64,000 nucleotides of DNA, from the sequence record OP778610; one strand, 5' to 3'. Below the pieces are notes generated by a model that saw only the letters and a program-made list of their open reading frames with translations, was not told the DNA's origin and searched no databases. Positions within the stretch are counted from its first letter, which is position 1, and every line of letters begins with the position of its first letter. The stretch is from Escherichia phage W70. The position numbers were made by a program, and so were the translations under genes. Of the stretch, positions 1,006 through 63,174 are shown piece by piece.

Positions 1006-1341
1006 ATGGCACTAGTCACTAAGTATTTCATTGAAGGCCAGCAAGCGGCGCAACAAGGTTACAGCCGTGTTACTCGTTACAAGAAAGAAGAAAACAAGAT
1101 TGAATTTTTCAAGGGTTACGATAGTGTAAACCGTGATGCAATGGTCCTACGCTTCGAATCCGATCCAGTGGGCAAGCCTGTTACCTCTTACCAGGCATCA
1201 CCGCAGATTGTTTATGTTGGTACTGTTAAAGAATGTAACGACAAGTTAATCACTTTGAAGCAGGCCGATCGTGCGGGTTACTTTGTTGTTTACACTGCTG
1301 ACGGTAAGCCTTACCAGTACGAAAGCAAATATTTTAAATAA
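1006..1341 (+). CDS. hypothetical protein (111 aa)
   Basis: ORF with GAGGA RBS 12 nt after previous stop. Confidence 0.5.
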   Translation: MALVTKYFIEGQQAAQQGYSRVTRYKKEENKIEFFKGYDSVNRDAMVLRFESDPVGKPVTSYQASPQIVYVGTVKECNDKLITLKQADRAGYFVVYTADGKPYQYESKYFK

Positions 1342-1347
1342 AAAGTA

Positions 1348-1405
1348 TTGACAGAAAGAAAGAAGTAAATTAAATTATACCACGTAACGCCGCAATCGTG
1401 CGGCA
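1348..1405 (+). promoter_or_regulatory. promoter (TTGACA) plus 5-prime stem-loop cassette
   Basis: TTGACA at 1348, AT-rich -10, hairpin CGCCGCAATCGTGCGGC before ORF 1423. Confidence 0.4.
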
Positions 1406-1422
1406 ATAAAAACTGATAGGAA

Positions 1423-1644
1423 TTGAACAAAATGGCTAAAATCATCATTAAAAAATCCCGTGTATCTTCTGTTGCTCGCGTCGAAATGGTAAACACTATG
1501 CCAGGTTACCGGACTCGCGAGGAAGCCCGAAGCGTTGCAAAACAGATTAAAGCCCGTGGCTTAACTGTAAGTGCACCGACCAAAACACAAGAAGGATGGA
1601 AGGTATCTATTAAATCCGGTACACTGTCGATCAATAAACACTAA
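1423..1644 (+). CDS. hypothetical basic protein (73 aa)
   Basis: ORF after promoter/hairpin cassette. Confidence 0.5.
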   Translation: MNKMAKIIIKKSRVSSVARVEMVNTMPGYRTREEARSVAKQIKARGLTVSAPTKTQEGWKVSIKSGTLSINKH

Positions 1645-1707
1645 TAGCCAAAACATTAACGGGGCAACTTTGCCCCTCACTAAATAACATTATCCAGGAG
1701 TATTAAC

Positions 1708-1866
1708 ATGACTAGCCAAAACACTAACATTGAAAAAATCAACATTACTAAAGAGCGTAAAGCATGGAATGAAACATTAAATCTGAAAGGTAAGAAGCTG
1801 AATAAAACTAAACGCGATCGCAGTACAAAGCGGGCCTTTTGTGAATTTACAGCGGATCAAGAATGA
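1708..1866 (+). CDS. hypothetical small basic protein (52 aa)
   Basis: ATG at 1708 after CAGGAG RBS; stop overlaps next ATG (ATGA); below the 60-aa ORF track cutoff. Confidence 0.4.
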   Translation: MTSQNTNIEKINITKERKAWNETLNLKGKKLNKTKRDRSTKRAFCEFTADQE

Positions 1867-6804: not shown

Positions 6805-7158
6805 ATGATCGAACAAATCAAAACTACGACGGCTAATGTAACGGGAACGGTAGCACACTTTACTAGTGATGAATCGCGGGGCGTTCCCTATTGTGCTGTA
6901 CATGTAAACACTGAGGGTAACTACTGGTTTACGGTTTACGGATCATATTCATTTGGACGGCCAGGGCATCAAAAAATTCTGGATAAAGTACAACCAACGG
7001 GTAAAAATATTACCGCTGAGATGTTTAATAAATCACTTGCAAAGTTAAAAGCACTGAAAGATTTTGGCTTTAAAGATCTAGTTATCAAACGTGATGAAAA
7101 ATTCCGCTTCCGTAATGATCTGGCAAATCGCTACTATGAAATCTATGAAGCACTTTAA
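6805..7158 (+). CDS. hypothetical protein (117 aa)
   Basis: ORF with AGGAG RBS. Confidence 0.5.
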   Translation: MIEQIKTTTANVTGTVAHFTSDESRGVPYCAVHVNTEGNYWFTVYGSYSFGRPGHQKILDKVQPTGKNITAEMFNKSLAKLKALKDFGFKDLVIKRDEKFRFRNDLANRYYEIYEAL

Positions 7159-21412: not shown

Positions 21413-21880
21413 TTAGCTACTAATCACCACGAATGCAGTAACTATAGCATACAGAAATCCAATTGCAACAAAAATTATCATAATGGGGTCAGAGGTTACT
21501 CGCTTAAGTTTTCCTAAGAAAGTTGATCGGTATTTGTGTTCCTTCTCCATTTTGTTTATCAAAATGATGAAAGAGTTGATATGAATATCTTCAGCACTCT
21601 CTGCAAAAGGTGTGTACTTGAACGTACCTTCTGTATTTGCAACAAAGCTGCGATGATACTTTTTACCGTCATAACTTTCTATAAGAAGACCATCCTTTGT
21701 CACCCGATAACTGACTGAACGGAACTTGTCATAAAAAACGTATGCCCTGAATCCATCTTGATCGGGAACAGCCTTTCTGACGTAGCCGTCAAAAAACTCC
21801 AATCTCTTTCCAGAATTCAGTTCCAAGTTGTCAGCTAACATAGGGAGTTGACTTACGTATGTAAAGTACATAATGATCAT
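21413..21880 (-). CDS. hypothetical tail-anchored membrane protein (155 aa)
   Basis: C-terminal TM helix PIMIIFVAIGFLYAIVTAFVVISS. Confidence 0.5.
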   Translation of the reverse strand: MIIMYFTYVSQLPMLADNLELNSGKRLEFFDGYVRKAVPDQDGFRAYVFYDKFRSVSYRVTKDGLLIESYDGKKYHRSFVANTEGTFKYTPFAESAEDIHINSFIILINKMEKEHKYRSTFLGKLKRVTSDPIMIIFVAIGFLYAIVTAFVVISS

Positions 21881-22072
21881 CCTTCCACTAAGCTGAAATC
21901 ATTTTATCATATTATGAAAAAATACAACAGCGAAGATCGGTCATGAACACTATGTTGTTAATTTTTACAACAGGACTCCAAAAAAGTATTTAAATCACTT
22001 AAATCGATTTTAATACATAGAAAATACCTATGGACCAGATCTGACCCATAGGCTATACCTTAATGTGAAATT

Positions 22073-22651
22073 TTATTCATTTCCCCGATATTTTTGAATT
22101 GCGATCGAAGTCCTTGGTTCAGCCAGTCCAGTTCCATATGCATACCATTTGCCAGTGAGTGTTTTTCGAGCACCGTAGGACCCAATCTCCATGTCGTCAC
22201 AATAAACATCGTAACCGATCGGGGTCTTAACTAAAAAGAGTACATTACGAGGAATCCCTAAGAGGGTAAACATCGATATGGCATCTTTTGCGATCTCGTG
22301 AGAAATCTTCTCTGCATTCTTTTTACTGGTTGCACTTCTAAACAGTTCCATCTTTAAGAAGATATTGAAATGAATATCATCAAGAACCATCTCATCACGG
22401 AAGCATGGGGTCACAGCCATCCAACTGCCATCTTCCAACTTCCCTTCTTTGTCGAGTTGGAGGAATGATTGCTCTGCGGAAGCCACTGCATATTTCCCGT
22501 TCTGGACAATTCGAAGATCAGTAACATCTTCGGGGCATGTATGGTCCATAGCATCATCATCCACATAGCTTGGGACAACCTTATCATTGAAACCTTTACA
22601 TTTCCACCAACTGTGGGCATCAATAAACAATGTGAAGTCGATGTTTGACAT
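22073..22651 (-). CDS. hypothetical protein (192 aa)
   Basis: Start at ATG after AAGCGAGG RBS. Confidence 0.5.
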   Translation of the reverse strand: MSNIDFTLFIDAHSWWKCKGFNDKVVPSYVDDDAMDHTCPEDVTDLRIVQNGKYAVASAEQSFLQLDKEGKLEDGSWMAVTPCFRDEMVLDDIHFNIFLKMELFRSATSKKNAEKISHEIAKDAISMFTLLGIPRNVLFLVKTPIGYDVYCDDMEIGSYGARKTLTGKWYAYGTGLAEPRTSIAIQKYRGNE

Positions 22652-22652
22652 T

Positions 22653-23156
22653 TTAGCCTCGCTTACCATTCTGGAATGCACGTTTAGTAATTTTTGACAT
22701 AACCATCAGGTCTTCTATTGAAGTGCTTGGATGATACTTATTCAGGTAGGCTTCCATAGCACCGACCAGATCAGAAAGCTCTACCAACTCCATGATCTTA
22801 CATTTTTGTTTAGCTGCATCCTTGAGTTCATCAAGTTCTTCTTGAATCTTAGTGATCTCTCCAAGCTCTCCGCGAGGGAAAGTATCCAGATGATAACCAG
22901 GTTTTTGTTCTTCAATACCCTCATGTCCGACAACACGAAATTTTCCGGCAGCGAAACGCCAAACACCTTCAAAATACACAATGTAATGTTCCGACTCTAC
23001 AATGAAGATAGTGTCGAAATTTTTAAATTTAAAAAATCCTTCGACAAGATTATCTTCTGTACTGAAACTTCCTAAGAAGTTGAGTTCTTGCTCCGTATGA
23101 AATTCCATAACCATATTTTCGTTCTGGAGTTTCGTCAGCAATTTTAAAATTTTCAT
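22653..23156 (-). CDS. putative MazG-like NTP pyrophosphohydrolase (T4 gp56-like size)
   Basis: GAGGAG RBS; C-terminal ELGEITKIQEELDELKD..ELVELSDLVGA resembles MazG EExxE/D motifs. Confidence 0.4.
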   Translation of the reverse strand: MKILKLLTKLQNENMVMEFHTEQELNFLGSFSTEDNLVEGFFKFKNFDTIFIVESEHYIVYFEGVWRFAAGKFRVVGHEGIEEQKPGYHLDTFPRGELGEITKIQEELDELKDAAKQKCKIMELVELSDLVGAMEAYLNKYHPSTSIEDLMVMSKITKRAFQNGKRG

Positions 23157-23167
23157 TTTCTCTCCTC

Positions 23168-23656
23168 TTATGGGCAACACCGTGGAGATCTTCCACAGAA
23201 GAATTGCCAATTGGTTTCTGAGTCTTTGTAATTTACAAACCCTATCCTTCCGCACCCTTGTCCACTACAAACAGCCTCACGAGGATGATAGTCTATACTA
23301 CAAGAGTGTGGATGGTCAAATGCTTCTCGTATTTCAACACATAGTCGGCTTAACCAGGCGAACATTTTTGGCATAGAAGCCTCAAGAAGTTTAAGTTCGT
23401 CGATCGTAGGTTTGTCTTTCTCAAGGAAGAAGTCATCTATCTCGGAAAACAAAATAACGTTTTGAACTATCCCGTCAGTTACCTTGTAAGAGAACTCCTC
23501 AGTAAGCCTCACGGTAACTTCCTCTATCAGTTCTTTTTCATTATCTTGATCTTTTGCCAGTCTTTCCTCAATCCATCGGATAATGAAGAATCTTTCTCTC
23601 TGAACATCCATGTTCAAAGTGTTGATTATTTTTTCATAGATTAGGTTTCCTTCCAT
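23168..23656 (-). CDS. hypothetical Cys-rich protein (162 aa)
   Basis: ORF; KPTIDELKLLEASMP motif; C-terminal Cys cluster. Confidence 0.45.
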   Translation of the reverse strand: MEGNLIYEKIINTLNMDVQRERFFIIRWIEERLAKDQDNEKELIEEVTVRLTEEFSYKVTDGIVQNVILFSEIDDFFLEKDKPTIDELKLLEASMPKMFAWLSRLCVEIREAFDHPHSCSIDYHPREAVCSGQGCGRIGFVNYKDSETNWQFFCGRSPRCCP

Positions 23657-24768
23657 ACCTTGTCTTGTGCCTCCAGGATAAGTTTTTCAACAATCTTCAG
23701 ATCTGTTTTCTTTGGTAAGCTCGATTGCTTATAAAGAACATCTGTGATCATTTTATCTTTTTCTTCAGCCCAGTCAACAATTTCTTCATAGCGGTATTCA
23801 CCATTTCGGATTGCGAGGAGTTCTTCAGCGTCTGGTCGATTCACTAAAACTTTACCTTCTGTGAGGATTTCTTCACCCATCCGAAGAAGCCGGACCAAAT
23901 GCATAGCATGTTTAGTGTCGTAACCGAACTTCTCTTCCAGTTCATGACGCTTCTCGTTACGATTCTTAACCCATTCCCAATAGTTGTGGTGTTTCTCCTT
24001 GGCCCATTTATGATCGTCAGCACAATACTTAACAATCATCAGTGTCTTACCTCTTTTAACTTCATCTGGGATTTCTTCATAGTCCAGCTTACGGATAGAA
24101 CCATCTTTGTTAAACATAGGTTCAACATTTTCACGACGATCCTCTACAACGCCGTAAATGTTACTGCCGTAATGAACCAAAGTACAGAAGCCTTCCATGT
24201 TTTTAAATTTACGAACAAAGTCTTCGTACTTCAACTCACCTTCTCCGAGATAGCTCTGCACCAGACGGAAATAGTCAAATTGAGTTGGTGGCTCTTTTGG
24301 TTGCGGATTATTAATGTGTTTGTTGTGACCCTTGATCCGCTTTAACTGAGACATTGCATAACCACTGAAGCGAAATGCAACTTCACGAGACAGTAAGGAG
24401 TAGAAATGTTCTTTCATCTCTTTCCAAGCTTCGTGCTCGTACAATGTGGCTTTCGGATCAGTAAAACCCAGTTCAATGATATTTGGGTTCATCTTCGAAA
24501 ACAGTTGAAGGAAAGTTCCCAATTCGTAGATCTTAGCATCCTCTTCACCAGGGATGTTTAATTCAGTAACCTCTTTGAATGGGGTACGAACCACATTTGG
24601 GGTTGCAACAAAAACCCCACGGATATCAATATCACTACCTTCGTTATTCGTACCATACGCATGAGATCCTGCCAGACTCAACATCAGTACCTTCGCCACG
24701 TCTGGATGATTTTCCATCTTCTCTACGATACTTTTTACCTTTCCAGCACTCACAACTGAATTTTCCAT
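23641..24768 (-). CDS. Pol-beta superfamily nucleotidyltransferase (375 aa)
   Basis: GS-x11-DIDI motif (LSLAGSHAYGTNNEGSDIDIRGVF). Confidence 0.6.
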   Translation of the reverse strand: MENSVVSAGKVKSIVEKMENHPDVAKVLMLSLAGSHAYGTNNEGSDIDIRGVFVATPNVVRTPFKEVTELNIPGEEDAKIYELGTFLQLFSKMNPNIIELGFTDPKATLYEHEAWKEMKEHFYSLLSREVAFRFSGYAMSQLKRIKGHNKHINNPQPKEPPTQFDYFRLVQSYLGEGELKYEDFVRKFKNMEGFCTLVHYGSNIYGVVEDRRENVEPMFNKDGSIRKLDYEEIPDEVKRGKTLMIVKYCADDHKWAKEKHHNYWEWVKNRNEKRHELEEKFGYDTKHAMHLVRLLRMGEEILTEGKVLVNRPDAEELLAIRNGEYRYEEIVDWAEEKDKMITDVLYKQSSLPKKTDLKIVEKLILEAQDKVWKET

Positions 24769-24858
24769 TTATCCTCCAATCATGTAAGTCACACAAGCCA
24801 ACCCAGTTGGCCTGTTTAATCTTTATAAAGTTTACGCAGCTTGTGCAGTCTTTTTTAT

Positions 24859-25254
24859 TTATAGGCATTTCACACCATAAATGATCATCAATACAACAAG
24901 TGTCAGTGTATAGATCAAACTCCCATAAAGTCCATGACTGGTGATTTTAAGCTTTTTCTTAAAGCACATCATTGTACTATAAATTACACCAGTCCAGTGA
25001 ATCACTAAAATCGCGGTGGCAATATCTGAAACATTACCCGCCCAAAGCATCAGAGAGTATGAGAGGTACATTGCAAAACCTGATAGCAGGAATGTAAACA
25101 AATAACCAATTACACTTTTCTTTTTCTGATATACGATTTTATTTTTCATGGTATCGATGTTCAGATTGTAATAGGCAACTGCCACTATCTGGATAATCAG
25201 CCCCAAGATAAAGAAAGAGATCAGTGTAACGTATTCAAAAATTGGTGCAGTCAT
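24859..25254 (-). CDS. hypothetical integral membrane protein (4 predicted TM)
   Basis: Four hydrophobic helices. Confidence 0.5.
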   Translation of the reverse strand: MTAPIFEYVTLISFFILGLIIQIVAVAYYNLNIDTMKNKIVYQKKKSVIGYLFTFLLSGFAMYLSYSLMLWAGNVSDIATAILVIHWTGVIYSTMMCFKKKLKITSHGLYGSLIYTLTLVVLMIIYGVKCL

Positions 25255-25652
25255 TATAATTTCTCCTCAATAATTTCAGAAATGAGATTCGAGATCTCGA
25301 AAGTTTCTAACTCTTCGACGTGTGACAAGCGCTGGAGGCGCTCGATAACAAAGTCTTTCTTCACAAATACATCCGACAAATGCTCAATGTCCTGCTTACC
25401 ACGCATTCCGCTAACCAACTGCTTGTATCGGATGAGTTCAATATACTCCTCTTTAGACATTACTGTCAAGCGTTCATCTGCACAAATATGCAAAAATACT
25501 TGCTTGCTGTCCCAGTCAAATCCTCTGTACACTGCCTCTACTTCACGGCGTGGTGTCCCGCCCAGTGTTACATGACCAACCTCAACAGGGATAGATACCT
25601 GATCATCAGGTCGGCACTGCTGCAACTCCTCAATCAATTCAGAAACTTTCAT
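25254..25652 (-). CDS. hypothetical protein (132 aa)
   Basis: ORF. Confidence 0.5.
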   Translation of the reverse strand: MKVSELIEELQQCRPDDQVSIPVEVGHVTLGGTPRREVEAVYRGFDWDSKQVFLHICADERLTVMSKEEYIELIRYKQLVSGMRGKQDIEHLSDVFVKKDFVIERLQRLSHVEELETFEISNLISEIIEEKL

Positions 25653-25654
25653 AG

Positions 25655-26110
25655 TTACCCCTGCTTAAGCTTGAAAGATTTAAATGCTTCGATAAAGTCC
25701 ATTTCTTTTTGCGTATACTTATGATCGATTGTATCAGCGAAAAGAGGGCAACGACCATCAACCAACTTCACATCCCACAGATGTTGAGGGAGAATAAATG
25801 CAATGGCTGTAAGTGCACCATTCAAAGAATCATTCTCCTCGCAGAAAAATGCGTAAGGAATCTTCTCTATGTTTGGAGCTAAAAATCCTTCTGCAAAATT
25901 AAGCATCTTAGATTGATAGCCTCCGTTCAACAAGATCATTGTTTGGTCTTTGCTTTGCCACTGATCTACAAGGTTGTATCTGTCATCATATCGATCGGCA
26001 TAGGCAAAGCCATAATGACCTACAAGGTTTGCTGCTGCATGTGCTGCTTGGATACCTGCTTGGATTCCCATCATATAGCTGTTTACCAATACGTACATCC
26101 GAGTTTTCAA
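25655..26110 (-). CDS. hypothetical protein, possible Pth2-like peptidyl-tRNA hydrolase fold
   Basis: N-terminal MYVLVN..MGIQAGIQAAHAAANL resembles the Pth2 MGKGKxAAQxxHA region (recalled, weak). Confidence 0.35.
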   Translation of the reverse strand: MKTRMYVLVNSYMMGIQAGIQAAHAAANLVGHYGFAYADRYDDRYNLVDQWQSKDQTMILLNGGYQSKMLNFAEGFLAPNIEKIPYAFFCEENDSLNGALTAIAFILPQHLWDVKLVDGRCPLFADTIDHKYTQKEMDFIEAFKSFKLKQG

Positions 26111-26427
26111 TTCTTACCTCCGAAAATTCTTTTTGCAAATTTTTCATTACCTAACGTCATGTTGTAGAAAACTATAATTGAATAGACAATCCACGCAAGG
26201 ACATAAAATAAAATCAAGAAAGGCCAGCCCACAAACCAAAACACTGTCATTATTAACCAGCCCGTCATAAGGAGTTTATAATTAACATTCCCGTGATTTA
26301 AAGGGTCAAGTAAGTTACTGTTCTCTGGCAGGGTGATACGAAACCCACCTTGACGAAGCTTGATCAAAAAGAACCAAGCAGCAGAACTTATAATGCAACA
26401 TAAAATATATATCAGTAATCCTGTCAT
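26107..26427 (-). CDS. small membrane protein, tandem paralogue A (106 aa)
   Basis: Shares FLIKLRQ.GF.I..P and three TM helices with the next gene. Confidence 0.5.
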   Translation of the reverse strand: MTGLLIYILCCIISSAAWFFLIKLRQGGFRITLPENSNLLDPLNHGNVNYKLLMTGWLIMTVFWFVGWPFLILFYVLAWIVYSIIVFYNMTLGNEKFAKRIFGGKN

Positions 26428-26753
26428 TTTTTAACTCCGAAGATCTTAGATAGTAATTTATCATTCCCGATAGTTACACCACAAAAACTTTTTACTCCGT
26501 ATACTAGATACGACCCGATTGTAACACAGATAATGATCGGATAAACAAGATACCAAAAGAATGTTGCAAGTATCCACCCTGCCATCACCATACGTAAATT
26601 TACATTTTCGTTATTCAGTGGCTCCAGGATATAAATATCCTCACAATCTTTTGGGAAGGGGATGTTGAACCCCTTCTGCCGTAATTTGATCAGTAAGAAC
26701 CAAAGTGGGCAACTAATAAGACAACCTATTAAATAACCTTCAACCATTTTCAC
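26424..26753 (-). CDS. small membrane protein, tandem paralogue B (109 aa)
   Basis: Paralogue of 26107..26427. Confidence 0.5.
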   Translation of the reverse strand: MKMVEGYLIGCLISCPLWFLLIKLRQKGFNIPFPKDCEDIYILEPLNNENVNLRMVMAGWILATFFWYLVYPIIICVTIGSYLVYGVKSFCGVTIGNDKLLSKIFGVKK

Positions 26754-27990
26754 TCTCCTTCAACTTGTCAAGATATTGTGTAACGTATCTTACTTTTACA
26801 TTTCGGATTCTGCTCTTGATCTCATCTGGACGTCCCGCGAATTTTTCAGAAATCTCTTTACTTTCTTTTGAGATTGCAACACTGTTCTGAATAATCCCCG
26901 CCAGTGCTGAGAATAATACCAGTGGTTGACTGTAGTTGTCAAACATTTTTTCAGGTCCACGCCCACGAGCATCACAGATGCAAGCGTCAATAAATTCAGA
27001 GAGGAATGCTTGGTCCTTTTCACCACGTAAGGCTACTAACAAGTCATAAACTTTCTTTGGCTTCATTTCTTTGATACGGTGAAGTCGTGTATGATGCTCA
27101 GTTACAGCTAAAGCCAACTTCTTCCAATTATTGGGGACACCAAAGCGATCACAAACTTGTTCAGTTAACTTGATACCATGTTCTTCGTGACCGTGCAGTT
27201 TACCCGTTAGCCAATAAATACATTTACCTAAGTCGTGACAAAGGACTGCCCACTTCACAGCCTCACTTGCACGAGTCGCCTGGGCATAATCCATGCAAAG
27301 TAAAGTGTGAACAAATGCATCACCTTCAGGATGGTGCTCCTTGGGTTGAACAACATCGTATAAATCCACAAGCTCAGGAAATTCTCCCAGTTGAGTCAAC
27401 ATACGGATCATTACCGAAGGTTTATTCATTTCTGACTGATCACTGAAGCATTTCTTAATCTCTGCAAATTTACGCTCTTTTGGCAATGCACTTAAATCCA
27501 CACTCCGACACATTAGCCAAGTGTCAGGATCAATTGTAAACTCACCGCCGTATCTGGCATGTAATCTGGCTAGTCGGTACACACGTAAAGGGTCTTCGAT
27601 AAATGCTTTAGTGGATACACAACGTAACCGACGAAGTTCAATATCCATTGCACCATTACAAGGGTCGATAATTTCGCCCGTGGAAATATCCTTGGCGATC
27701 GCATTAATGGTTAAATCTCTTCGCATCAGGTCTTGTTCAATTGTAACGTCTGGAGAGAACACAACTTCGAAATCGTGATAACCAGGGCCTGTTGATCTTT
27801 CCGTTCGAGCAAGAGCATACTCTTCTTTAGTGTTCGGTTCAAGGTACACAGGGAAAGCTGCACCAACCTTAGTAAATCCCTTCTCAATCATTTCTTCATG
27901 GGTCGCTCCAACTACAACGTAGTCACGATCCTTGCTTTCAACACTCATTAGTTCATCGCGAACTGCACCACCTACCAAGTAAACTTTCAT
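26740..27990 (-). CDS. cca: CCA tRNA nucleotidyltransferase with HD domain
   Basis: MKVYLVGGAVRD..DRDYVVVG head motif; HDLGK HD motif; close to recalled E. coli Cca. Confidence 0.9.
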   Translation of the reverse strand: MKVYLVGGAVRDELMSVESKDRDYVVVGATHEEMIEKGFTKVGAAFPVYLEPNTKEEYALARTERSTGPGYHDFEVVFSPDVTIEQDLMRRDLTINAIAKDISTGEIIDPCNGAMDIELRRLRCVSTKAFIEDPLRVYRLARLHARYGGEFTIDPDTWLMCRSVDLSALPKERKFAEIKKCFSDQSEMNKPSVMIRMLTQLGEFPELVDLYDVVQPKEHHPEGDAFVHTLLCMDYAQATRASEAVKWAVLCHDLGKCIYWLTGKLHGHEEHGIKLTEQVCDRFGVPNNWKKLALAVTEHHTRLHRIKEMKPKKVYDLLVALRGEKDQAFLSEFIDACICDARGRGPEKMFDNYSQPLVLFSALAGIIQNSVAISKESKEISEKFAGRPDEIKSRIRNVKVRYVTQYLDKLKESENG

Positions 27991-28028
27991 TCCTTCTTCT
28001 CCCATTCTTTCCAATTCTGCATGTCCGC

Positions 28029-28193
28029 TCATAGCCATCCCCTTTCTTTATACCCTTTTGTAAATCCTGATTCCCAATCTTGAAATTGCTCCGGCATGGT
28101 GTTTGGATTATACGGGTTGTTTCTCTTGAACATCCCAAACTTGAATCCAGCGGCTCGGCCCTTCTCGTATGCTGAACTGCTTTTTCTTGTCAT
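28029..28193 (-). CDS. hypothetical small basic protein (54 aa)
   Basis: Start at ATG after AAGAGGAGAA RBS. Confidence 0.4.
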   Translation of the reverse strand: MTRKSSSAYEKGRAAGFKFGMFKRNNPYNPNTMPEQFQDWESGFTKGYKERGWL

Positions 28194-28519: not shown

Positions 28520-28572
28520 TATGTTCTCCTACTTAATGATCATCATTATACACATCCCTGAATTCAAGTCAA

Positions 28573-28600
28573 CAAAAAAGGCCACCCGAAGGTGACCTTT
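28573..28600 (-). terminator. rho-independent terminator (minus strand)
   Basis: GGTCACC-loop-GGTGGCC hairpin plus T-run. Confidence 0.55.
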
Positions 28601-55224: not shown

Positions 55225-56592
55225 TTAAACCTCCTCTGCAATTTTACGAAGAAGATCCAGAAGAGAGTTCGATGCTTCGATCACTTCTTCCAGGCTGTTG
55301 GCTACGCTCTTATCAAAGCGAAGTTCAACAAACTTATAATTTAAACGAGGCAAAAACAGAGATTTCAGATCTTTGTTCTCTGCATCAGTAATGTCATTAG
55401 CCTTGATCGTAATAATCTGCCCAATGAAATACTCACTCGGTTTTTTACGAAGAGCATCAGTAAGTCCAGACCCTGCACCAACTTCAAGAAGTCCATCACG
55501 AGTACGGCAGATCAGAGATCCAATAAGCCCAGGCTTCTTTTTGTGAGGCGTTGTCGCCACAACTTCAAGATCAACATCGAACTCATTTTTAAGTTTGATC
55601 CCTTTCTTAGTTTTGTTATCTCCCCAAGGCATATTCGCTTCTTTAAGAACCGTACCCTCTTTCTTCTGCAAACGCATTTCGATAAAGTGGTCAATAGCCT
55701 CTTTAAGACTGCCAATCTGACGACCACGGATCATCTGGAAATGAGAAGACTCATCAACATAGTTGACAATATTTTCAACCTGCTTACGACGGTCTTTATA
55801 TTTTTTCTTGGATTTACGTGCGATATACTCGTCCATAGAAACAACATCCCAAACAACCAAACGTACCAGATTAGGATCAATGTTTTCAGGATCTTGGTTA
55901 AGATATCCGTTACCGATCTCTCGTGGTTGAACCCCGTGCGGGTATGACAGGTCAATAACTAAACCTTCCCCGTGCATAACAAAAGGACCATCAGAATTGG
56001 CTTTTTCTTTCAGGTTTTGCTCAAGTGAAGGAATACACCGGAAATTAAGCTCTTTCCCTGATCGTGAACGATAAATGATCTGCTCAGGCCAAACCATAAT
56101 GTCTGCATAAAGTCCGTCCATCTTCTCGTCGGAGAAAGCACCCTCGTAGTTGAAATTACGAAGGAGATCCTCTTTGAAAAGGGTGTAGCTCTGGTAAGGA
56201 GGCTCTGTAACCAGATCCTTCCAAACCTTGTTGGTCAGAGTTGTCTGGATACCACACTCAAGATCGCGGTTAATGATCTTCAGCAGTGTTTCTGGTTCTT
56301 CGCACAGTTGAACAGCATTCGTGAGAACATCACGGGCTTCATGCCCAGTATACATACGACTTGCAACATCGTTGACGATAAGATCAATACTCTCTTGCAG
56401 ATTCCGATTCCCTTGGTGGAAAGTTGCAGGATCAACCTTAAAACTGCGAACAAAGAAGTTTAACTCTTTGCTGTATGCAACCCGAAATACTTCACGCAGG
56501 CCATCATTGTCCGCATGGCTACGTAAGATCGCTTCTTTTTCTTTTGTTGATCCGGTTGCTGCCAGTTGTTCGATAATCTTAGTTACGCTCAT
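55225..56592 (-). CDS. ATP-dependent DNA ligase (T4 gp30-like)
   Basis: KxDG motif EKMDGLYADI; N-terminus GSTKEKEAIL and RDLECG match recalled T4 ligase. Confidence 0.9.
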   Translation of the reverse strand: MSVTKIIEQLAATGSTKEKEAILRSHADNDGLREVFRVAYSKELNFFVRSFKVDPATFHQGNRNLQESIDLIVNDVASRMYTGHEARDVLTNAVQLCEEPETLLKIINRDLECGIQTTLTNKVWKDLVTEPPYQSYTLFKEDLLRNFNYEGAFSDEKMDGLYADIMVWPEQIIYRSRSGKELNFRCIPSLEQNLKEKANSDGPFVMHGEGLVIDLSYPHGVQPREIGNGYLNQDPENIDPNLVRLVVWDVVSMDEYIARKSKKKYKDRRKQVENIVNYVDESSHFQMIRGRQIGSLKEAIDHFIEMRLQKKEGTVLKEANMPWGDNKTKKGIKLKNEFDVDLEVVATTPHKKKPGLIGSLICRTRDGLLEVGAGSGLTDALRKKPSEYFIGQIITIKANDITDAENKDLKSLFLPRLNYKFVELRFDKSVANSLEEVIEASNSLLDLLRKIAEEV

Positions 56593-56937: not shown

Positions 56938-57155
56938 TTAGTCTCCTTTAGTTTTCCACAAAGAGCACCTTCAACATAATCAGGATTCTCTTTAAAGAAC
57001 TGATCATTCTTTTTAATGAAACCACCAATGTTCCGACGGAGAAATGCGAATGCTTTGATCCCTCGATACCAAGCATCAAAGCTTGATTTCTTCAGTTCCC
57101 CACCCATATAGACATTGGTGAAATAAAACGGATGAGTCTTCTTACTTATCCTCAT
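56934..57155 (-). CDS. hypothetical protein (73 aa)
   Basis: ORF. Confidence 0.45.
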   Translation of the reverse strand: MRISKKTHPFYFTNVYMGGELKKSSFDAWYRGIKAFAFLRRNIGGFIKKNDQFFKENPDYVEGALCGKLKETK

Positions 57156-57164
57156 TGTTTCCTC

Positions 57165-57518
57165 CTAAACAGAGAAAAGAACCTCTTCTTTCTCCACATG
57201 AAACTCAAAACCGTCCACAAGATTAGATTCTCGATCCTTACTTTCATGATAACTACACGTCCAACGGTAAACACCAGGACCAGAATCTGAATCAGGTGGA
57301 AGACCAATATACTCCGCTTCAGGACCCTCGTCAAGCAATGCAGGATGAATATTTGGTGCTTTAAGGACGGTTACCCGTCCACTGTAATCAACAGCCACAA
57401 TCCAAACACTTCCATTCGGAGATTCGAAAACTTCCTCTTTTGGATCTTCTTTGATAAGAGCTTTGTTTGGCTTTTTCAAGCAGGTTGCCAATCCAGAATC
57501 AATCCACTGGTTTGACAT
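57165..57518 (-). CDS. hypothetical protein
   Basis: Start uncertain; longest form overlaps the upstream gene. Confidence 0.35.
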   Translation of the reverse strand: MSNQWIDSGLATCLKKPNKALIKEDPKEEVFESPNGSVWIVAVDYSGRVTVLKAPNIHPALLDEGPEAEYIGLPPDSDSGPGVYRWTCSYHESKDRESNLVDGFEFHVEKEEVLFSV

Positions 57519-61315: not shown

Positions 61316-61394
61316 GCGGGTGTATCTCAACGGTCTTCTAAACCGTCGTTAATCGAGTAATTGGAGTATGAAGGTTCGAGTCCTTCCTCCCGCG
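61316..61394 (+). ncRNA. tRNA-like element (noncanonical; possible pseudo-tRNA or stable RNA)
   Basis: Canonical T-arm GAAGG-TTCGAGT-CCTTC and 7-bp acceptor-like helix with one mismatch; anticodon-like hairpin with loop CTTCTAA (TCT); no clean D-arm. Confidence 0.4.
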
Positions 61395-61413
61395 CTAAGT
61401 TCTTTTGAATATA

Positions 61414-61485
61414 GGCCCTGTAGCTGGACGGTTCAAGCAAGCGACTCATAATCGCCAGACGGTGGTTCGATTCCACCCAGGGCCA
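61414..61485 (+). tRNA. tRNA with anticodon CAT (Met or Ile2)
   Basis: Acceptor GGCCCTG/CAGGGCC, T-arm GGTGG-TTCGATT-CCACC, loop CTCATAA, CCA encoded. Confidence 0.8.
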
Positions 61486-61621
61486 CCATACAAAGTCGGG
61501 TAGCTCCCGATAAGTCGTCGGACTGATGTTCCCTGACTATGAGTTCTCTCAACGATAACGACGTAGATCACAGCAGAAACGGCGCACCCTATTATATTTC
61601 TTAATACATTTCAATAAGTTC

Positions 61622-61650
61622 TTGACATAATCCTATTATACTGCTAATAT
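61622..61650 (+). promoter_or_regulatory. sigma70-like promoter (TTGACA-17-TAATAT)
   Basis: Hexamers upstream of ORF 61678. Confidence 0.5.
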
Positions 61651-61677
61651 AGATATATCGACTGAATTGAGGTGTTT

Positions 61678-62052
61678 ATGGCTAAAGCTGAAATCGTTAC
61701 TCGAAAACGCGGTCGGCCTACTACAGAGGAAAGCATTGCAATCAATACTGAGAGAGCAATTCTTCATGCTCGTTCCGAGTTTGCAAGACTTACTCCTCAA
61801 GCAATTAAAACTCTGGAAGGTCTACTGACTTCCGGTACAGAGAAAGTTAAAGAAACTACTGCGAAGTATATTCTTGAGCAAGCTGAAAAGGCAAACAATC
61901 TGTACACAATGGAAGATAATGAAGAGGATCTGGCAGGAGGAACTACTTCTGCAAATTCAGAAACTCATCAAGGCCCTTCTGATGCATTTAAAGATGCTAT
62001 CCCATTAACTACTCAGATTCGTGAGTATAAAATGGCAGAAGGTGAAGATTAA
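61678..62052 (+). CDS. hypothetical protein with AT-hook-like KRGRP motif
   Basis: ATG after GAGGTG RBS; RKRGRPTT. Confidence 0.5.
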   Translation: MAKAEIVTRKRGRPTTEESIAINTERAILHARSEFARLTPQAIKTLEGLLTSGTEKVKETTAKYILEQAEKANNLYTMEDNEEDLAGGTTSANSETHQGPSDAFKDAIPLTTQIREYKMAEGED

Positions 62053-62075
62053 GGCTCGCAAGGGCCTTTATTAAG
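62052..62075 (+). terminator. terminator-like hairpin with GCAA tetraloop
   Basis: AGGCTC-GCAA-GGGCCT followed by T-rich tract. Confidence 0.45.
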
Positions 62076-62297
62076 AAGTTTTCTTTAAGGTAGTTCTTAC
62101 TTTAGCAGAGTAAATCTTCGGCAAGTGGCGGTAACCACTTTACCGATACCTCATAGTCAGTGCTGCAAACACTGGCTACCTTAAAGAGAATTTAACTCGT
62201 CGAATAAGGAAGATGCTGATCTCAAAGTGAGGTCACTTACCGCAAGGGGTGTGCATAGACTCCCGCTTCCGAATAGACTATGTGGCGAGATGTATTT

Positions 62298-62376
62298 GGG
62301 GACGTGGCAGAGCGGTCGAATGCGCCTGACTGTAAATCAGGTATCCCACACGGTGGTTCGAATCCATCCGGCCCCA
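62298..62376 (+). tRNA. tRNA-Tyr (anticodon GTA)
   Basis: AC arm CCTGA-CTGTAAA-TCAGG; T-arm GGTGG-TTCGAAT-CCATC; acceptor with one A-G mismatch; CCA encoded. Confidence 0.7.
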
Positions 62377-62382
62377 CCAAAT

Positions 62383-62455
62383 TTTCCGTTAGGCTTACAG
62401 GATAAGATTCCCACAACATATCGTTGTGATACTGGTTCGAATCCAGTACGGAAAC
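62383..62455 (+). ncRNA. tRNA-like element (noncanonical anticodon arm)
   Basis: Perfect acceptor TTTCCGT/ACGGAAA and T-arm ACTGG-TTCGAAT-CCAGT; internal hairpin CACAAC-ATATC-GTTGTG. Confidence 0.45.
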
Positions 62456-62582
62456 CAAATTAAGCCGTGATGTGATGTAATCACTGACCTCTTTGAAGGA
62501 TCATGGCATTTTATACAAAAACCTGAATAATTTAGGTTTTAATTCCTGGGGTTCGTAGCCCTATTACTAAGAGGACTTAACT

Positions 62583-62792
62583 ATGTTTACTATTAAAATT
62601 ATTGATATCGATGGAAATGAGACTGGTGTTTCAACAAGGCACTATAGATGGTACTCAAAAATGAATATTTTTGATCTGGAGGGTGGTGAATCTGTTTCTG
62701 TACCACCAAAAAGTCGTGCTTATGTAATGAATGACAAAGGAATAACCATCGGTAGATACACAAATACAGCGGATCAACGCGTTCTTAATTAA
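62583..62792 (+). CDS. hypothetical protein (69 aa) inside tRNA cluster
   Basis: ORF with AAGAGGA RBS. Confidence 0.5.
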   Translation: MFTIKIIDIDGNETGVSTRHYRWYSKMNIFDLEGGESVSVPPKSRAYVMNDKGITIGRYTNTADQRVLN

Positions 62793-62793
62793 A

Positions 62794-62865
<72 letters not shown>

Positions 62866-62966
62866 CCAAACCTCTATCCATCTGACGCGTTTATGGGGTT
62901 GACCTGATCACTCTTCTCCTAATCTCGTGTGAAGACACCATGATTGTTGGGATGGATAAACTTCTT

Positions 62967-63038
62967 TTGGGGATTAGCCAAGCGGTAAGGCATCGGATTT
63001 TGATTCCGACATTCACTGGTTCGATTCCAGTATCCCCA
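62967..63038 (+). tRNA. tRNA-Gln (anticodon TTG)
   Basis: Acceptor TGGGGAT/ATCCCCA (U1-A72); AC arm TCGGA-TTTTGAT-TCCGA; T-arm ACTGG-TTCGATT-CCAGT. Confidence 0.9.
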
Positions 63039-63046
63039 GCCAATTA

Positions 63047-63121
<75 letters not shown>

Positions 63122-63174
63122 CCAATTTACCCTCATATAATAACAATAATATAATCTCCTCTCCTTCGCCTCAG

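What the first reader, a model, noticed from the sequence alone, without database searches (positions are those of the whole stretch)
23641..25254. Pol-beta-type nucleotidyltransferase next to a 4-TM membrane protein
ORF 23641..24768 carries the GS-x11-DIDI signature (AGSHAYGTNNEGSDIDIRGVF) of the Pol-beta nucleotidyltransferase superfamily. That superfamily includes CD-NTases, minimal nucleotidyltransferases, class I CCA enzymes and KNTases. The gene is preceded by a 90-bp gap and a multi-TM protein (24859..25254). A nucleotidyltransferase paired with a membrane protein could be a signalling or exclusion pair rather than a tRNA enzyme.
Basis: partly seen in the sequence, partly recalled or inferred. 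Interest (0 to 1): 0.6.

Follow-up and report, generated by a model that had tools for sequence, protein, structure and literature searches.

The report
Phage RlaP-type RNA-repair nucleotidyltransferase
The gene is a phage copy of the known RlaP family of RNA 3'-end nucleotidyltransferases, sitting in a tRNA-maintenance gene cluster, and its membrane-protein neighbour is a lineage-specific bystander rather than a signalling partner.

Summary
The window is the last 64 kb of Escherichia phage A73 (Vequintavirinae). ORF 23641..24768 (minus strand, 375 aa) is real and carries the Pol-beta motif, with spacing GS-x10-DxD rather than x11.

It belongs to Pfam PF10127 (RlaP, RNA-ligase-associated Pol-beta) and is a distant homologue of T4 NrdC.11. 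Two bacterial RlaP enzymes were recently shown to add one or two nucleotides to RNA 3'-OH ends, preferring nicked tRNA.

The 4-TM neighbour is confined to the closest relatives: 5 of 80 related viral loci, and about 10 family representatives among 1.84 billion proteins. The NTase has more than 5000 homologues. It gives no match to defence-system models and no CD-NTase-like fold. Its similarity to HalB, the NTase of the Hailong NTase-plus-channel system, is only generic.

The partners that recur are a CCA-adding enzyme and a PTH2-fold putative peptidyl-tRNA hydrolase, found in five different gene arrangements. I found no RNA ligase in A73, although sister genera carry an Rnl2-like one.

The "90-bp gap" holds a conserved, unannotated 74-aa Cys-rich ORF that overlaps both neighbours.

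Verdict: an ordinary new member of a known family. The signalling-pair idea is not supported.

The parts
23641..24768 (-). RlaP-family (PF10127) Pol-beta nucleotidyltransferase, 375 aa. N-terminal NTase domain with G34-S35, D46, D48 and D77; a beta-rich central insert at about residues 155-250; a C-terminal helical domain at 250-374.
   Evidence: Pfam RlaP E=6.9e-19 and phrog_388 E=8e-79 over the full length. 5112 homologues; the 120 listed are PF10127 or carry no Pfam domain. Invariant residues. AF2 model pLDDT 89.5. hhalign to T4 NrdC.11: probability 97.3%, E=2.5e-11.
24644..24868 (-). Unannotated conserved small ORF, 74 aa (MPINKKDCTSCVNFIKIKQANWVGLCDLHDWRING...). It overlaps the membrane gene by 10 nt and the NTase gene by 125 nt in a shifted frame. 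The CxxC...CxxH pattern suggests a possible zinc-ribbon miniprotein.
   Evidence: Intact in 11 of 14 relatives examined, with the stop at the same place. In the 28 non-overlapping codons, substitutions at codon positions 1/2/3 are 6/4/12 (A73 vs CR9) and 0/1/7 (CR9 vs CR3). Only 0.8% of synonymous recodings of NTase codons 1-45 keep this frame open. No Pfam hit and no called homologue.
24859..25254 (-). Small membrane protein, 131 aa, about 4 TM, with no soluble domain. Lineage-specific neighbour.
   Evidence: phrog_12739 'membrane protein'. Hydropathy. Present in only 30 phage records and 5 of 80 viral loci. 11 representatives at E<=1e-3 among 1.84 billion proteins, two of them partial matches within much longer proteins. 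No PDB, Pfam or PADLOC hit.
25254..25652 (-). Conserved protein of unknown function, 132 aa (phrog_12566). The best-conserved gene of the cluster within A73, Certrevirus and SSBI34.
   Evidence: 58-76% identity in relatives. Absent from Mydovirus BIS47 and the Vibrio phage.
25655..26110 (-). PTH2-fold protein, a putative peptidyl-tRNA hydrolase, 151 aa. It is the neighbour that recurs next to the NTase alongside the CCA-adding enzyme.
   Evidence: phrog_3668. AF2 pLDDT 92. The Foldseek PDB top 10 are all Pth2/Bit1, probability 1.00, target-normalised TM-score 0.65-0.74. Homologue next to the NTase in BIS47, Vibrio phage 496E54-1 and L078. Annotated 'peptidyl-tRNA hydrolase' in PcCB7V.
26107..26753 (-). 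Two paralogous small membrane proteins (26107..26427 and 26424..26753), both phrog_17692.
26740..28038 (-). Class II CCA-adding enzyme with an HD phosphohydrolase domain, of the E. coli Cca 'addition/repair' type.
   Evidence: Pfam PolyA_pol E=3e-19 plus HD E=1.4e-8. NCBIfam NF008137: 381 bits. phrog_2244.
23168..23656 (-). Protein of 162 aa with unknown function and a Cys-rich C-terminus (phrog_12113). Its start overlaps the NTase stop by 16 nt.
22653..23255 (-). Protein whose C-terminal 83 aa match phrog_6408, with a weak MazG/PRA-PH-like signal. The annotated start gives 167 aa.
   Evidence: PF01503, E=0.037, below the cut-off.
22073..22681 (-). Class II aminoacyl-tRNA-synthetase core-like fragment, 202 aa.
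   Evidence: phrog_4806 E=4.8e-56. TIGR00414 serS E=1.6e-4, far below the cut-off. PF00152 E=0.044. Annotated 'putative seryl-tRNA synthetase' in UPEC06 and SSBI34.
28545..28600 (-). Predicted terminator hairpin (28600..28577) followed by a sigma-70-like promoter (TTGACT-16-TATAAT, 28572..28545). This is the putative start of the transcription unit.
   Evidence: a consensus scan only. The total number of promoter-like sites is not above chance.
22026..22053 (-). Predicted intrinsic terminator (12-bp stem) after the aaRS-like gene. This is the putative end of the unit.
   Evidence: a consensus scan only.

Best explanation
ORF 23641..24768 encodes an RlaP-family template-independent RNA nucleotidyltransferase. 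[quoted passage not shown]

In phage A73 it appears to be co-transcribed with three other genes: a CCA-adding enzyme carrying an HD phosphohydrolase domain, a PTH2-fold putative peptidyl-tRNA hydrolase, and a class II aaRS-like fragment. Together these form a phage tRNA maintenance or repair cluster that would counter host tRNA-targeting nucleases.

The 4-TM protein upstream is one of several small membrane ORFs scattered through this early-type region. It is a lineage-specific insertion, not a functional partner.

Shown here by computation: family membership, the catalytic motif, the fold class, the gene order and its conservation, and the lack of a detectable RNA ligase in A73.

Taken from the literature: the RlaP activity.

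Inferred: tRNA as the in vivo substrate, cooperation with the CCA enzyme and the PTH2-like protein, and the counter-defence role.
For: - Family: Pfam RlaP 68.9 bits against a cut-off of 23, and phrog_388 over the full length. 5112 homologues; all 120 listed carry PF10127 or no Pfam domain. The T4 RlaP member NrdC.11 aligns over residues 26-337, probability 97.3%.
- Catalytic residues: G34, S35, D46, D48 and D77 are invariant.
- Fold: NTase plus helical-domain class (KNTase, 3c18, MNT, HalB); not CD-NTase.
- Activity and the proposed repair role come from PMC12776372 and PMC7824862.
- Context: the CCA enzyme and the PTH2-fold protein accompany the NTase across Vequintavirinae and in unrelated phages, in five arrangements. 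These are CCA-PTH2-RlaP, CCA-RlaP with overlapping genes, RlaP-CCA, and two longer forms.
- All five ARAGORN-called tRNA genes in the window already encode CCA, so the CCA enzyme is for repair rather than maturation.
- The unit is bracketed by a predicted promoter and terminators.
- The membrane protein is not conserved with the NTase.
Against: - No RNA ligase, the family's name-giving partner, was found in the A73 genome. A sealing step for anticodon-loop breaks would therefore need a host enzyme, and E. coli RtcB needs a 3'-phosphate, which RlaP products lack.
- In 59 of 80 related viral loci the gene lies between gp32/UvsX-like and UvsW-like DNA recombination genes, with no tRNA enzyme nearby. 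The tRNA context is therefore not universal.
- The Pfam model matches only the N-terminal 130 residues. The phage clade carries an insert of about 90 residues of unknown role.
- No RlaP structure was available for direct superposition.
- The biochemistry comes from one preprint on bacterial enzymes that are only distantly related.
Confidence: 0.7

Rival explanations
1. The NTase and the 4-TM protein form a signalling or exclusion pair, as in Hailong (the HalB NTase makes oligo-dA that gates the HalA channel) or CBASS (a CD-NTase signal activates a membrane effector).
For: - The two genes lie on the same strand in one apparent transcription unit and are linked by overlapping reading frames through the small ORF.
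- The adjacency is kept in Septuagintavirus, Certrevirus and SSBI34.
Against: - Neither the protein nor its profile matches the HalB sequence at E<=1.
- Sequence places the NTase firmly in RlaP.
- CD-NTase Foldseek probability is at most 0.08, and there are no PADLOC hits.
- The membrane protein is 131 aa with loops of at most about 17 residues, so it lacks the cytoplasmic ligand-binding 'crown' described for HalA.
- The pairing is seen in 5 of 80 loci and is absent in Mydovirus, Seunavirus-like loci, the Vibrio phage, T4 and the environmental phages.
- Several unrelated small membrane ORFs are scattered through the same cluster.
Confidence: 0.04
2. The protein is an RlaP-type RNA 3'-end transferase whose natural substrate is not tRNA. 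The substrate would be another RNA tied to DNA replication or recombination or to gene expression, for example primer or R-loop RNA ends, or tailing of mRNA or sRNA. The CCA/PTH2 neighbourhood in Vequintavirinae would then be only synteny.
For: - In 59 of 80 related loci the gene sits between gp32-like and RecA/UvsX-like genes upstream and a UvsW-like helicase downstream.
- A73 lacks an RNA ligase.
- The bacterial enzymes label rRNA-sized and other RNAs as well as tRNA, and accept dATP as donor.
Against: - CCA-RlaP adjacency recurs in different orders and in different phage lineages, with overlapping genes, which argues for function rather than inherited synteny.
- The bacterial enzymes prefer the 5' half of a nicked tRNA and do not extend DNA.
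- Phage gene order within replication modules is weak evidence of function.
Confidence: 0.15
3. The protein is a minimal-NTase (MNT)-type antitoxin or an antibiotic-type adenylyltransferase (KNTase-like) that modifies a protein or small molecule rather than RNA.
For: - The top Foldseek hits are KNTase/ANT(4') and MNT antitoxins.
- There is a weak NCBIfam MntA match.
Against: - The MntA score is 18.9 bits against a cut-off of 60 and covers only the GS...DxD motif.
- No HEPN toxin gene lies nearby.
- The bacterial RlaP enzymes did not label proteins.
- Family assignment by sequence is to PF10127.
Confidence: 0.03

Closest known systems
RlaP (PF10127) of Pseudomonas fluorescens and P. aeruginosa, encoded in rtcB-rlaP-rtcA operons (PMC12776372)
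   Same: - Same Pfam family.
- The same GS...DxD motif plus a third Asp.
- An N-terminal NTase domain followed by a C-terminal helical domain.
- A predicted RNA 3'-OH extending activity.
   Different: - Only the N-terminal 130 residues match the Pfam model.
- The phage protein is longer (375 aa against a 249-position profile), with a beta-rich insert at about residues 155-250.
- It is not next to RtcB, RtcA or any RNA ligase, and A73 has no detectable RNA ligase.
- Its neighbours are a CCA-adding enzyme and a PTH2-fold protein.
Phage T4 NrdC.11 (RlaP cluster 5 in PMC12776372)
   Same: - Phage-encoded RlaP member of similar length (336 aa).
- Aligns from the motif to the C-terminal domain: hhalign probability 97.3%, 24% identity.
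- Function untested in both.
   Different: - Very divergent: BLASTP detects only the N-terminal 110 residues.
- T4 carries Rnl1, Rnl2 and Pnk elsewhere in its genome and no CCA-adding enzyme (my own knowledge).
- In T4 the gene sits next to the homing endonuclease gene mobD.
Hailong HalB/HalA (NTase plus DNA-gated ion channel)
   Same: - A small Pol-beta NTase encoded next to a membrane protein.
   Different: - No sequence similarity.
- HalB is 217 aa and primes oligo-dA on its own tyrosine.
- HalA has a cytoplasmic crown that binds the oligonucleotide, whereas the A73 protein is a bare 4-TM bundle of 131 aa.
- Hailong is a bacterial defence operon, not a lytic-phage early gene pair.
- The pairing here is not conserved.
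Kanamycin nucleotidyltransferase ANT(4') and other NTase plus helical-domain proteins (3c18, LinB)
   Same: Best Foldseek matches (E about 1e-3, probability 0.99). The same two-domain layout: a Pol-beta NTase followed by a helical, HEPN-like domain.
   Different: - Query-normalised TM-score is only about 0.23-0.25 and identity about 15%.
- These enzymes have small-molecule substrates.
- No family-level sequence match.
Class II CCA-adding enzyme (E. coli Cca type)
   Same: A template-independent RNA 3'-end nucleotidyltransferase of the Pol-beta superfamily acting on tRNA ends. One is encoded 2 kb upstream in the same unit (26740..28038).
   Different: The finding's protein has no PolyA_pol head domain or HD domain and is not a CCA enzyme. 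RlaP shows little NTP specificity and adds one or two nucleotides.
CBASS CD-NTases
   Same: The Pol-beta superfamily motif.
   Different: Foldseek probability at most 0.08 with rmsd above 24 Å. No PADLOC hit. No Cap effector or nucleotide-sensing domain nearby.

Membership tests
RlaP (Pfam PF10127) | Sequence match to the family model above the curated threshold | tested here: met
   68.9 bits against a cut-off of 23, E=6.9e-19, residues 15-145. All 120 listed of 5112 homologues carry PF10127 or no Pfam domain.
RlaP (Pfam PF10127) | Pol-beta catalytic signature: hG[GS], DxD and a third conserved Asp | tested here: met
   G34-S35, D46, D48 and D77 are invariant in 26 homologues and aligned with the same residues in T4 NrdC.11. 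Assigning D77 as the third metal ligand is an inference.
RlaP (Pfam PF10127) | Two-domain architecture: N-terminal NTase, C-terminal helical domain, terminal helix packing back | tested here: inconclusive
   The AF2 model (pLDDT 89.5) has an NTase domain, then helices at 250-374. The C-terminal region matches phage proteins annotated as NTase or RlaP. The PfRlaP coordinates are not in the PDB copy, so no superposition was possible. An extra insert at about residues 155-250 is present.
RlaP (Pfam PF10127) | Genomic association with an RNA ligase (RtcB or a 5'-phosphate ligase) | tested here: not met
   - No RNA ligase is adjacent.
- The A73 genome gives no match to the catalytic part of the Rnl2-like ligase of sister phages.
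- No RNA-ligase Pfam or PHROG hit in the ORFs scanned.
- SSBI34, Seunavirus and Mydovirus relatives do encode an Rnl2-like ligase, but far from the RlaP gene.
- The association holds for 'some' family members only, so this does not exclude membership.
RlaP (Pfam PF10127) | Adds one or two NMPs to RNA 3'-OH; Mn2+-dependent | not testable with these tools
   Needs a biochemical assay. Known only for PfRlaP and PaRlaP.
Hailong (HalA/HalB) | HalB-type NTase | tested here: not met
Hailong (HalA/HalB) | HalA-type channel with a transmembrane domain plus a cytoplasmic oligonucleotide-binding crown | tested here: not met
   The neighbour is 131 aa, with four hydrophobic segments and short loops and no soluble domain. 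No PDB sequence match at E<=10.
Hailong (HalA/HalB) | Conserved two-gene operon | tested here: not met
   A membrane-protein homologue lies next to the NTase in 5 of 80 viral loci. 30 versus 445 phage records.
CBASS CD-NTase | CD-NTase fold or profile match, with an associated effector | tested here: not met
   Foldseek probability 0.03-0.08 to CdnD and CdnE. No PADLOC family for the NTase or any neighbour.
MNT antitoxin (MntA, type VII TA) | Match to the MntA model, with an adjacent HEPN toxin | tested here: not met
   18.9 bits against a cut-off of 60, motif region only. No HEPN gene among the neighbours.
Class II CCA-adding enzyme | PolyA_pol head domain | tested here: not met
   No PF01743 hit for the 375-aa protein. 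The domain is in the separate gene at 26740..28038.

The most novel reading that the evidence does not exclude
In Vequintavirinae that have lost the Rnl2-like ligase (A73/Septuagintavirus, Certrevirus), and in the phages with contiguous CCA-PTH2-RlaP genes, the three enzymes may form a ligase-independent repair line for the tRNA acceptor end.
1. The PTH2-like protein strips peptidyl or blocked aminoacyl groups.
2. The HD domain of the CCA enzyme heals cyclic-phosphate ends.
3. RlaP refills one or two nucleotides lost beyond the CCA, such as the discriminator base.
4. The CCA enzyme then rebuilds CCA.

The conserved overlapping 74-aa Cys-rich ORF could tune NTase translation or act as its cofactor.
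Probability: 0.2. Interest if true: 0.55.

Novelty: new member of a known kind. Interest (0 to 1): 0.3.

Why it matters
The gene is annotated 'hypothetical protein' in A73 and its closest relatives. Naming it RlaP, and naming its neighbour a PTH2-fold hydrolase, gives a coherent reading of a block of unannotated genes as a tRNA-repair cluster. That is relevant to how V5-like therapeutic phages may escape tRNA-cleaving host defences.

The recurrent RlaP/CCA-enzyme/PTH2 linkage, and retention of RlaP in genomes without an RNA ligase, yield a testable question about what RlaP enzymes do in phages.

The finding as proposed, a new NTase-membrane signalling pair, does not hold. The value here is mainly in closing that lead and in flagging the overlapping small ORF.

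Tried and rejected
- **Defence system or CD-NTase reading.** PADLOC gave no hits for the NTase, the membrane protein or five neighbours. CD-NTases appear only at Foldseek probability of at most 0.08.
- **Direct comparison with a solved RlaP structure.** Neither sequence search of the PDB (single sequence or profile) found one. The afdb50 library was unavailable.
- **RNA ligase in A73.**
  - The 455-aa ligase at 55225..56592 is a T4-type DNA ligase. It is unrelated to the SSBI34 'RNA ligase'.
  - The SSBI34 Rnl2-like protein matches A73 only over its first 50 residues, in A73_72.
  - Pfam and PHROG scans of all window ORFs of at least 180 aa, and of the larger non-structural ORFs in the rest of the genome, found none.
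  - Structural-module ORFs and ORFs under about 180 aa were not scanned.
- **A regulatory RNA or terminator in the 90-nt gap.** The 6-bp palindrome is not conserved in relatives and is not enriched in the window. The region folds no better than shuffles, z=0.04. There are no Rfam hits apart from tRNAs.
- **Homologues of the small ORF.** None in the protein database and no Pfam match.
- **Primary papers.** The Burroughs & Aravind 2016 paper and the Hailong primary paper are not held in the library. Their content is cited only through papers that quote them.
Full report
**Where the window comes from.** The 6.1 kb around the finding is 100% identical to Escherichia phage A73 (OP778609.1, Vequintavirinae, 142,009 bp). 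The window is the last 64,000 bases of that record, so window position equals record position minus 78,009. A close relative is classified in the genus Septuagintavirus. The whole stretch from about 10 kb to 60 kb is transcribed on the minus strand.

**Check of the observation.**
- ORF 23641..24768 (minus strand) is real. It has 375 codons, an ATG start and GGAGG 5 nt upstream. It is annotated A73_230, 'hypothetical protein'.
- The quoted peptide AGSHAYGTNNEGSDIDIRGVF is present. The spacing is GS-x10-DID rather than x11.
- G34, S35, D46, D48 and a later Asp (D77) are invariant among 26 homologues of 47-71% identity.
- The upstream ORF 24859..25254 encodes 131 residues with four hydrophobic stretches separated by Lys-rich loops, so about four TM helices is a fair reading.
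- Ninety nucleotides separate the two annotated genes, but they are not empty (see "The 90-bp gap" below).

**What the nucleotidyltransferase is.**
- It matches Pfam PF10127 (RlaP, 'RNA repair pathway DNA polymerase beta family') at 68.9 bits against a cut-off of 23. It matches PHROG 388 'nucleotidyltransferase' over its full length, E=8e-79.
- A search of 5.8 billion proteins returned 5112 homologues. All but one of the 120 listed carry PF10127; the exception is a 236-aa fragment with no Pfam domain on record.
- The Pfam match covers only residues 15-145. However, the C-terminal 110 residues match phage proteins annotated as nucleotidyltransferase, 'NrdC-like' or 'RlaP RNA repair protein'.
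- A profile of the family aligns with T4 NrdC.11 from the motif to residue 337 at 97.3% probability. NrdC.11 is named as the T4 member of RlaP in PMC12776372.
- An AlphaFold model built from 26 sequences (pLDDT 89.5) shows an N-terminal Pol-beta domain, a beta-rich insert at about residues 155-250 and a helical C-terminal domain.
- No RlaP structure is in the PDB copy.

**What the family does.** RlaP was named for its operonic association with RNA ligases and was predicted to restore nucleotides lost from broken RNA ends before ligation. A December 2025 preprint reports the following for two Pseudomonas RlaPs:
- They add one or two NMPs to RNA 3'-OH ends.
- They do not extend DNA or label proteins.
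- They prefer Mn2+.
- They favour the 5' half of a nicked tRNA.
- They can partly rescue aminoacylation of a tRNA that has lost an anticodon-loop nucleotide.

The activity of the A73 protein is inferred from this; nothing here tests it.

**Is the membrane protein a partner?**
- By tblastn, the NTase occurs in 445 phage records and the membrane protein in 30. All 30 are from the A73 group and Certrevirus, plus one unannotated 5.8-kb Enterobacter phage record.
- A diverged homologue is also found in SSBI34, and there too it lies just upstream of the NTase.
- Among 80 related loci from viral metagenomes, a homologue of the membrane protein accompanies the NTase in 5.
- In Mydovirus BIS47 the upstream gene is a soluble 124-aa protein. 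In Vibrio phage 496E54-1 the upstream gene is the PTH2-like gene.
- An exhaustive HMMER search of 1.84 billion representatives found only 11 proteins at E<=1e-3. Two of these are partial matches within much longer proteins.
- The protein has no Pfam, PADLOC or PDB match.
- Three other small membrane ORFs lie in the same cluster: 26424..26753 and 26107..26427, which are paralogues, and 21413..21880.
- The known NTase-plus-membrane-protein system, Hailong, needs a channel with a cytoplasmic oligonucleotide-binding crown. A 131-residue four-helix protein has no room for one.

I conclude that the pairing is lineage-specific synteny.

**What is conserved next to the gene.**
- Across Vequintavirinae the same block contains a class II CCA-adding enzyme with an HD domain (26740..28038) and a 151-aa protein (25655..26110, PHROG 3668 'hydrolase').
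- The 151-aa protein's AlphaFold model (pLDDT 92) matches only Pth2/Bit1 peptidyl-tRNA hydrolases among solved structures: the top ten hits, all at probability 1.00. One Pectobacterium phage record already annotates the homologue as peptidyl-tRNA hydrolase.
- The NTase is linked to the CCA enzyme in five arrangements:
  - the long A73 form;
  - the Mydovirus form;
  - contiguous CCA-PTH2-RlaP, in Vibrio phage 496E54-1 and in L078;
  - CCA-RlaP with overlapping genes, in L018;
  - RlaP-CCA, in L079.
- Downstream in A73 lie three more genes. One is a 162-aa Cys-rich protein whose start overlaps the NTase stop. The next has a weak MazG-like C-terminus. The last is a 202-aa class II aminoacyl-tRNA-synthetase core-like fragment.
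- A terminator plus a near-consensus promoter at 28600..28545, and a terminator at 22053..22026, bracket the block. These are pattern matches only.
- The five tRNA genes that ARAGORN calls in the window all encode their CCA. This fits a repair role for the CCA enzyme rather than a maturation role.

**Points that do not fit neatly.**
- *No RNA ligase in A73.*
  - SSBI34, Seunavirus and Mydovirus relatives encode an Rnl2-like RNA ligase with motif KAHGTN. In SSBI34 a protein annotated as a phosphatase sits beside it.
  - A73 keeps only a 128-aa remnant of the ligase's N-terminal region.
  - The 455-aa ligase in the window is a T4-type DNA ligase.
  - I found no other RNA ligase.
- *A different gene context elsewhere.* In 59 of the 80 viral loci (about 45% identity, environmental phages) the gene lies in a gp32 / UvsX-like / RlaP / UvsW-like helicase order, with no tRNA enzyme nearby. 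The RNA substrate in vivo, and the way any break is sealed, therefore remain open. This is why the mechanism is given 0.7 rather than more.

**The 90-bp gap.**
- ORF 24644..24868 (74 aa) begins inside the last codons of the membrane gene and reads 125 nt into the NTase gene in a shifted frame.
- It is intact in A73, UPEC06, A7_1, LTH01, CR9, CR3, KaOmega, PcCB7V, POP15 and two metagenomic contigs, with its stop at the same place.
- It is frame-shifted in phiTE and SSBI34, and broken by stops in L012.
- In the 28 codons that overlap nothing, substitutions are concentrated at third positions: 6/4/12 for A73 against CR9, and 0/1/7 for CR9 against CR3.
- Along the rest of the A73 NTase gene this frame has a stop about every eight codons, and the longest open stretch is the one that belongs to this ORF. 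Only 0.8% of synonymous recodings of the first 45 NTase codons keep it open.
- It has a CxxC...CxxH pattern; the third Cys is Gly in PcCB7V. It has no Pfam match and no called homologue.
- I regard it as a probable unannotated overlapping gene of unknown function.
- The region shows no significant RNA structure.

**Verdict.**
- *The observation.* It is essentially right, with two corrections: the motif spacing, and a gap that is occupied.
- *The interpretation.* It is right about the superfamily, and unsupported in proposing a signalling or exclusion pair instead of a tRNA-related enzyme.
- *What the gene is.* It is a new member of the RlaP family, which has been known since 2016 and was characterised biochemically in 2025.
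- *What is modestly new.*
  - the recurrent RlaP/CCA-enzyme/PTH2 linkage;
  - retention of RlaP in phages without an RNA ligase;
  - the overlapping small ORF.

Noticed in passing
window 24644..24868 (-): Conserved unannotated 74-aa Cys-rich ORF filling the '90-bp gap'. It overlaps the membrane gene by 10 nt and the NTase gene by 125 nt. Substitutions are third-position biased, and the frame is open far longer than expected (0.8% of synonymous recodings). It is intact in 11 of 14 relatives.
   Followed up: yes
window 25655..26110 (-): The PHROG 'hydrolase' with no Pfam hit has a PTH2 (archaeal/eukaryotic-type peptidyl-tRNA hydrolase) fold. It travels with the CCA enzyme and RlaP in several phage lineages.
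   Followed up: yes
window 22073..22681 (-): A 202-aa protein resembling only the catalytic core of a class II aminoacyl-tRNA synthetase (called SerRS- or HisRS-like in various annotations). It is too short to be a synthetase, and its function is unknown.
   Followed up: partly
A73 record 57113..57499 (L089 17314..17700) versus L087 19926..21834: SSBI34 and many other Vequintavirinae carry an Rnl2-like RNA ligase. In SSBI34 a protein annotated as a phosphatase, which by eye looks macro-domain-like, sits beside it. A73 retains only a 128-aa homologue of the ligase's N-terminal region, which suggests loss of the ligase in this lineage.
   Followed up: partly
L021-L086 (e.g. L022 2211..3302, L034 766..1725, L065 2022..3536): In 59 of 80 environmental phage loci the RlaP gene is embedded in the order gp32-like SSB / RecA-UvsX-like recombinase / RlaP / two unknown genes / UvsW-like helicase.
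   Followed up: partly
window 12219..15717 (-): Three consecutive genes of about 380-400 aa encoding RCC1-repeat (beta-propeller) proteins.
   Followed up: no
window 61316..63124 (+): ARAGORN calls five tRNA genes (Met, Tyr, Gly, Gln, Pro), all with an encoded CCA. Rfam finds a sixth, weak tRNA-like match at 61316..61394 (35.8 bits) that ARAGORN does not call.
   Followed up: partly
window 26107..26753 (-) and 21413..21880 (-): Two tandem paralogous small membrane proteins (phrog_17692) lie between the CCA enzyme and the PTH2-like gene. A C-terminally anchored membrane protein (phrog_12909) lies just past the predicted terminator.
   Followed up: no
L010 (phiTE) about 6890..7015; L094 (KaOmega) 1157..1799: In phiTE a 1-nt difference puts the first half of the small ORF in frame with the NTase, giving a possible N-terminally extended NTase or a sequencing error. 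The KaOmega record annotates an earlier start for its NTase.
   Followed up: no
window 55225..56592 (-): T4-type ATP-dependent DNA ligase; the best PDB match is 6dt1. It is not homologous to the protein labelled 'RNA ligase' in SSBI34.
   Followed up: yes
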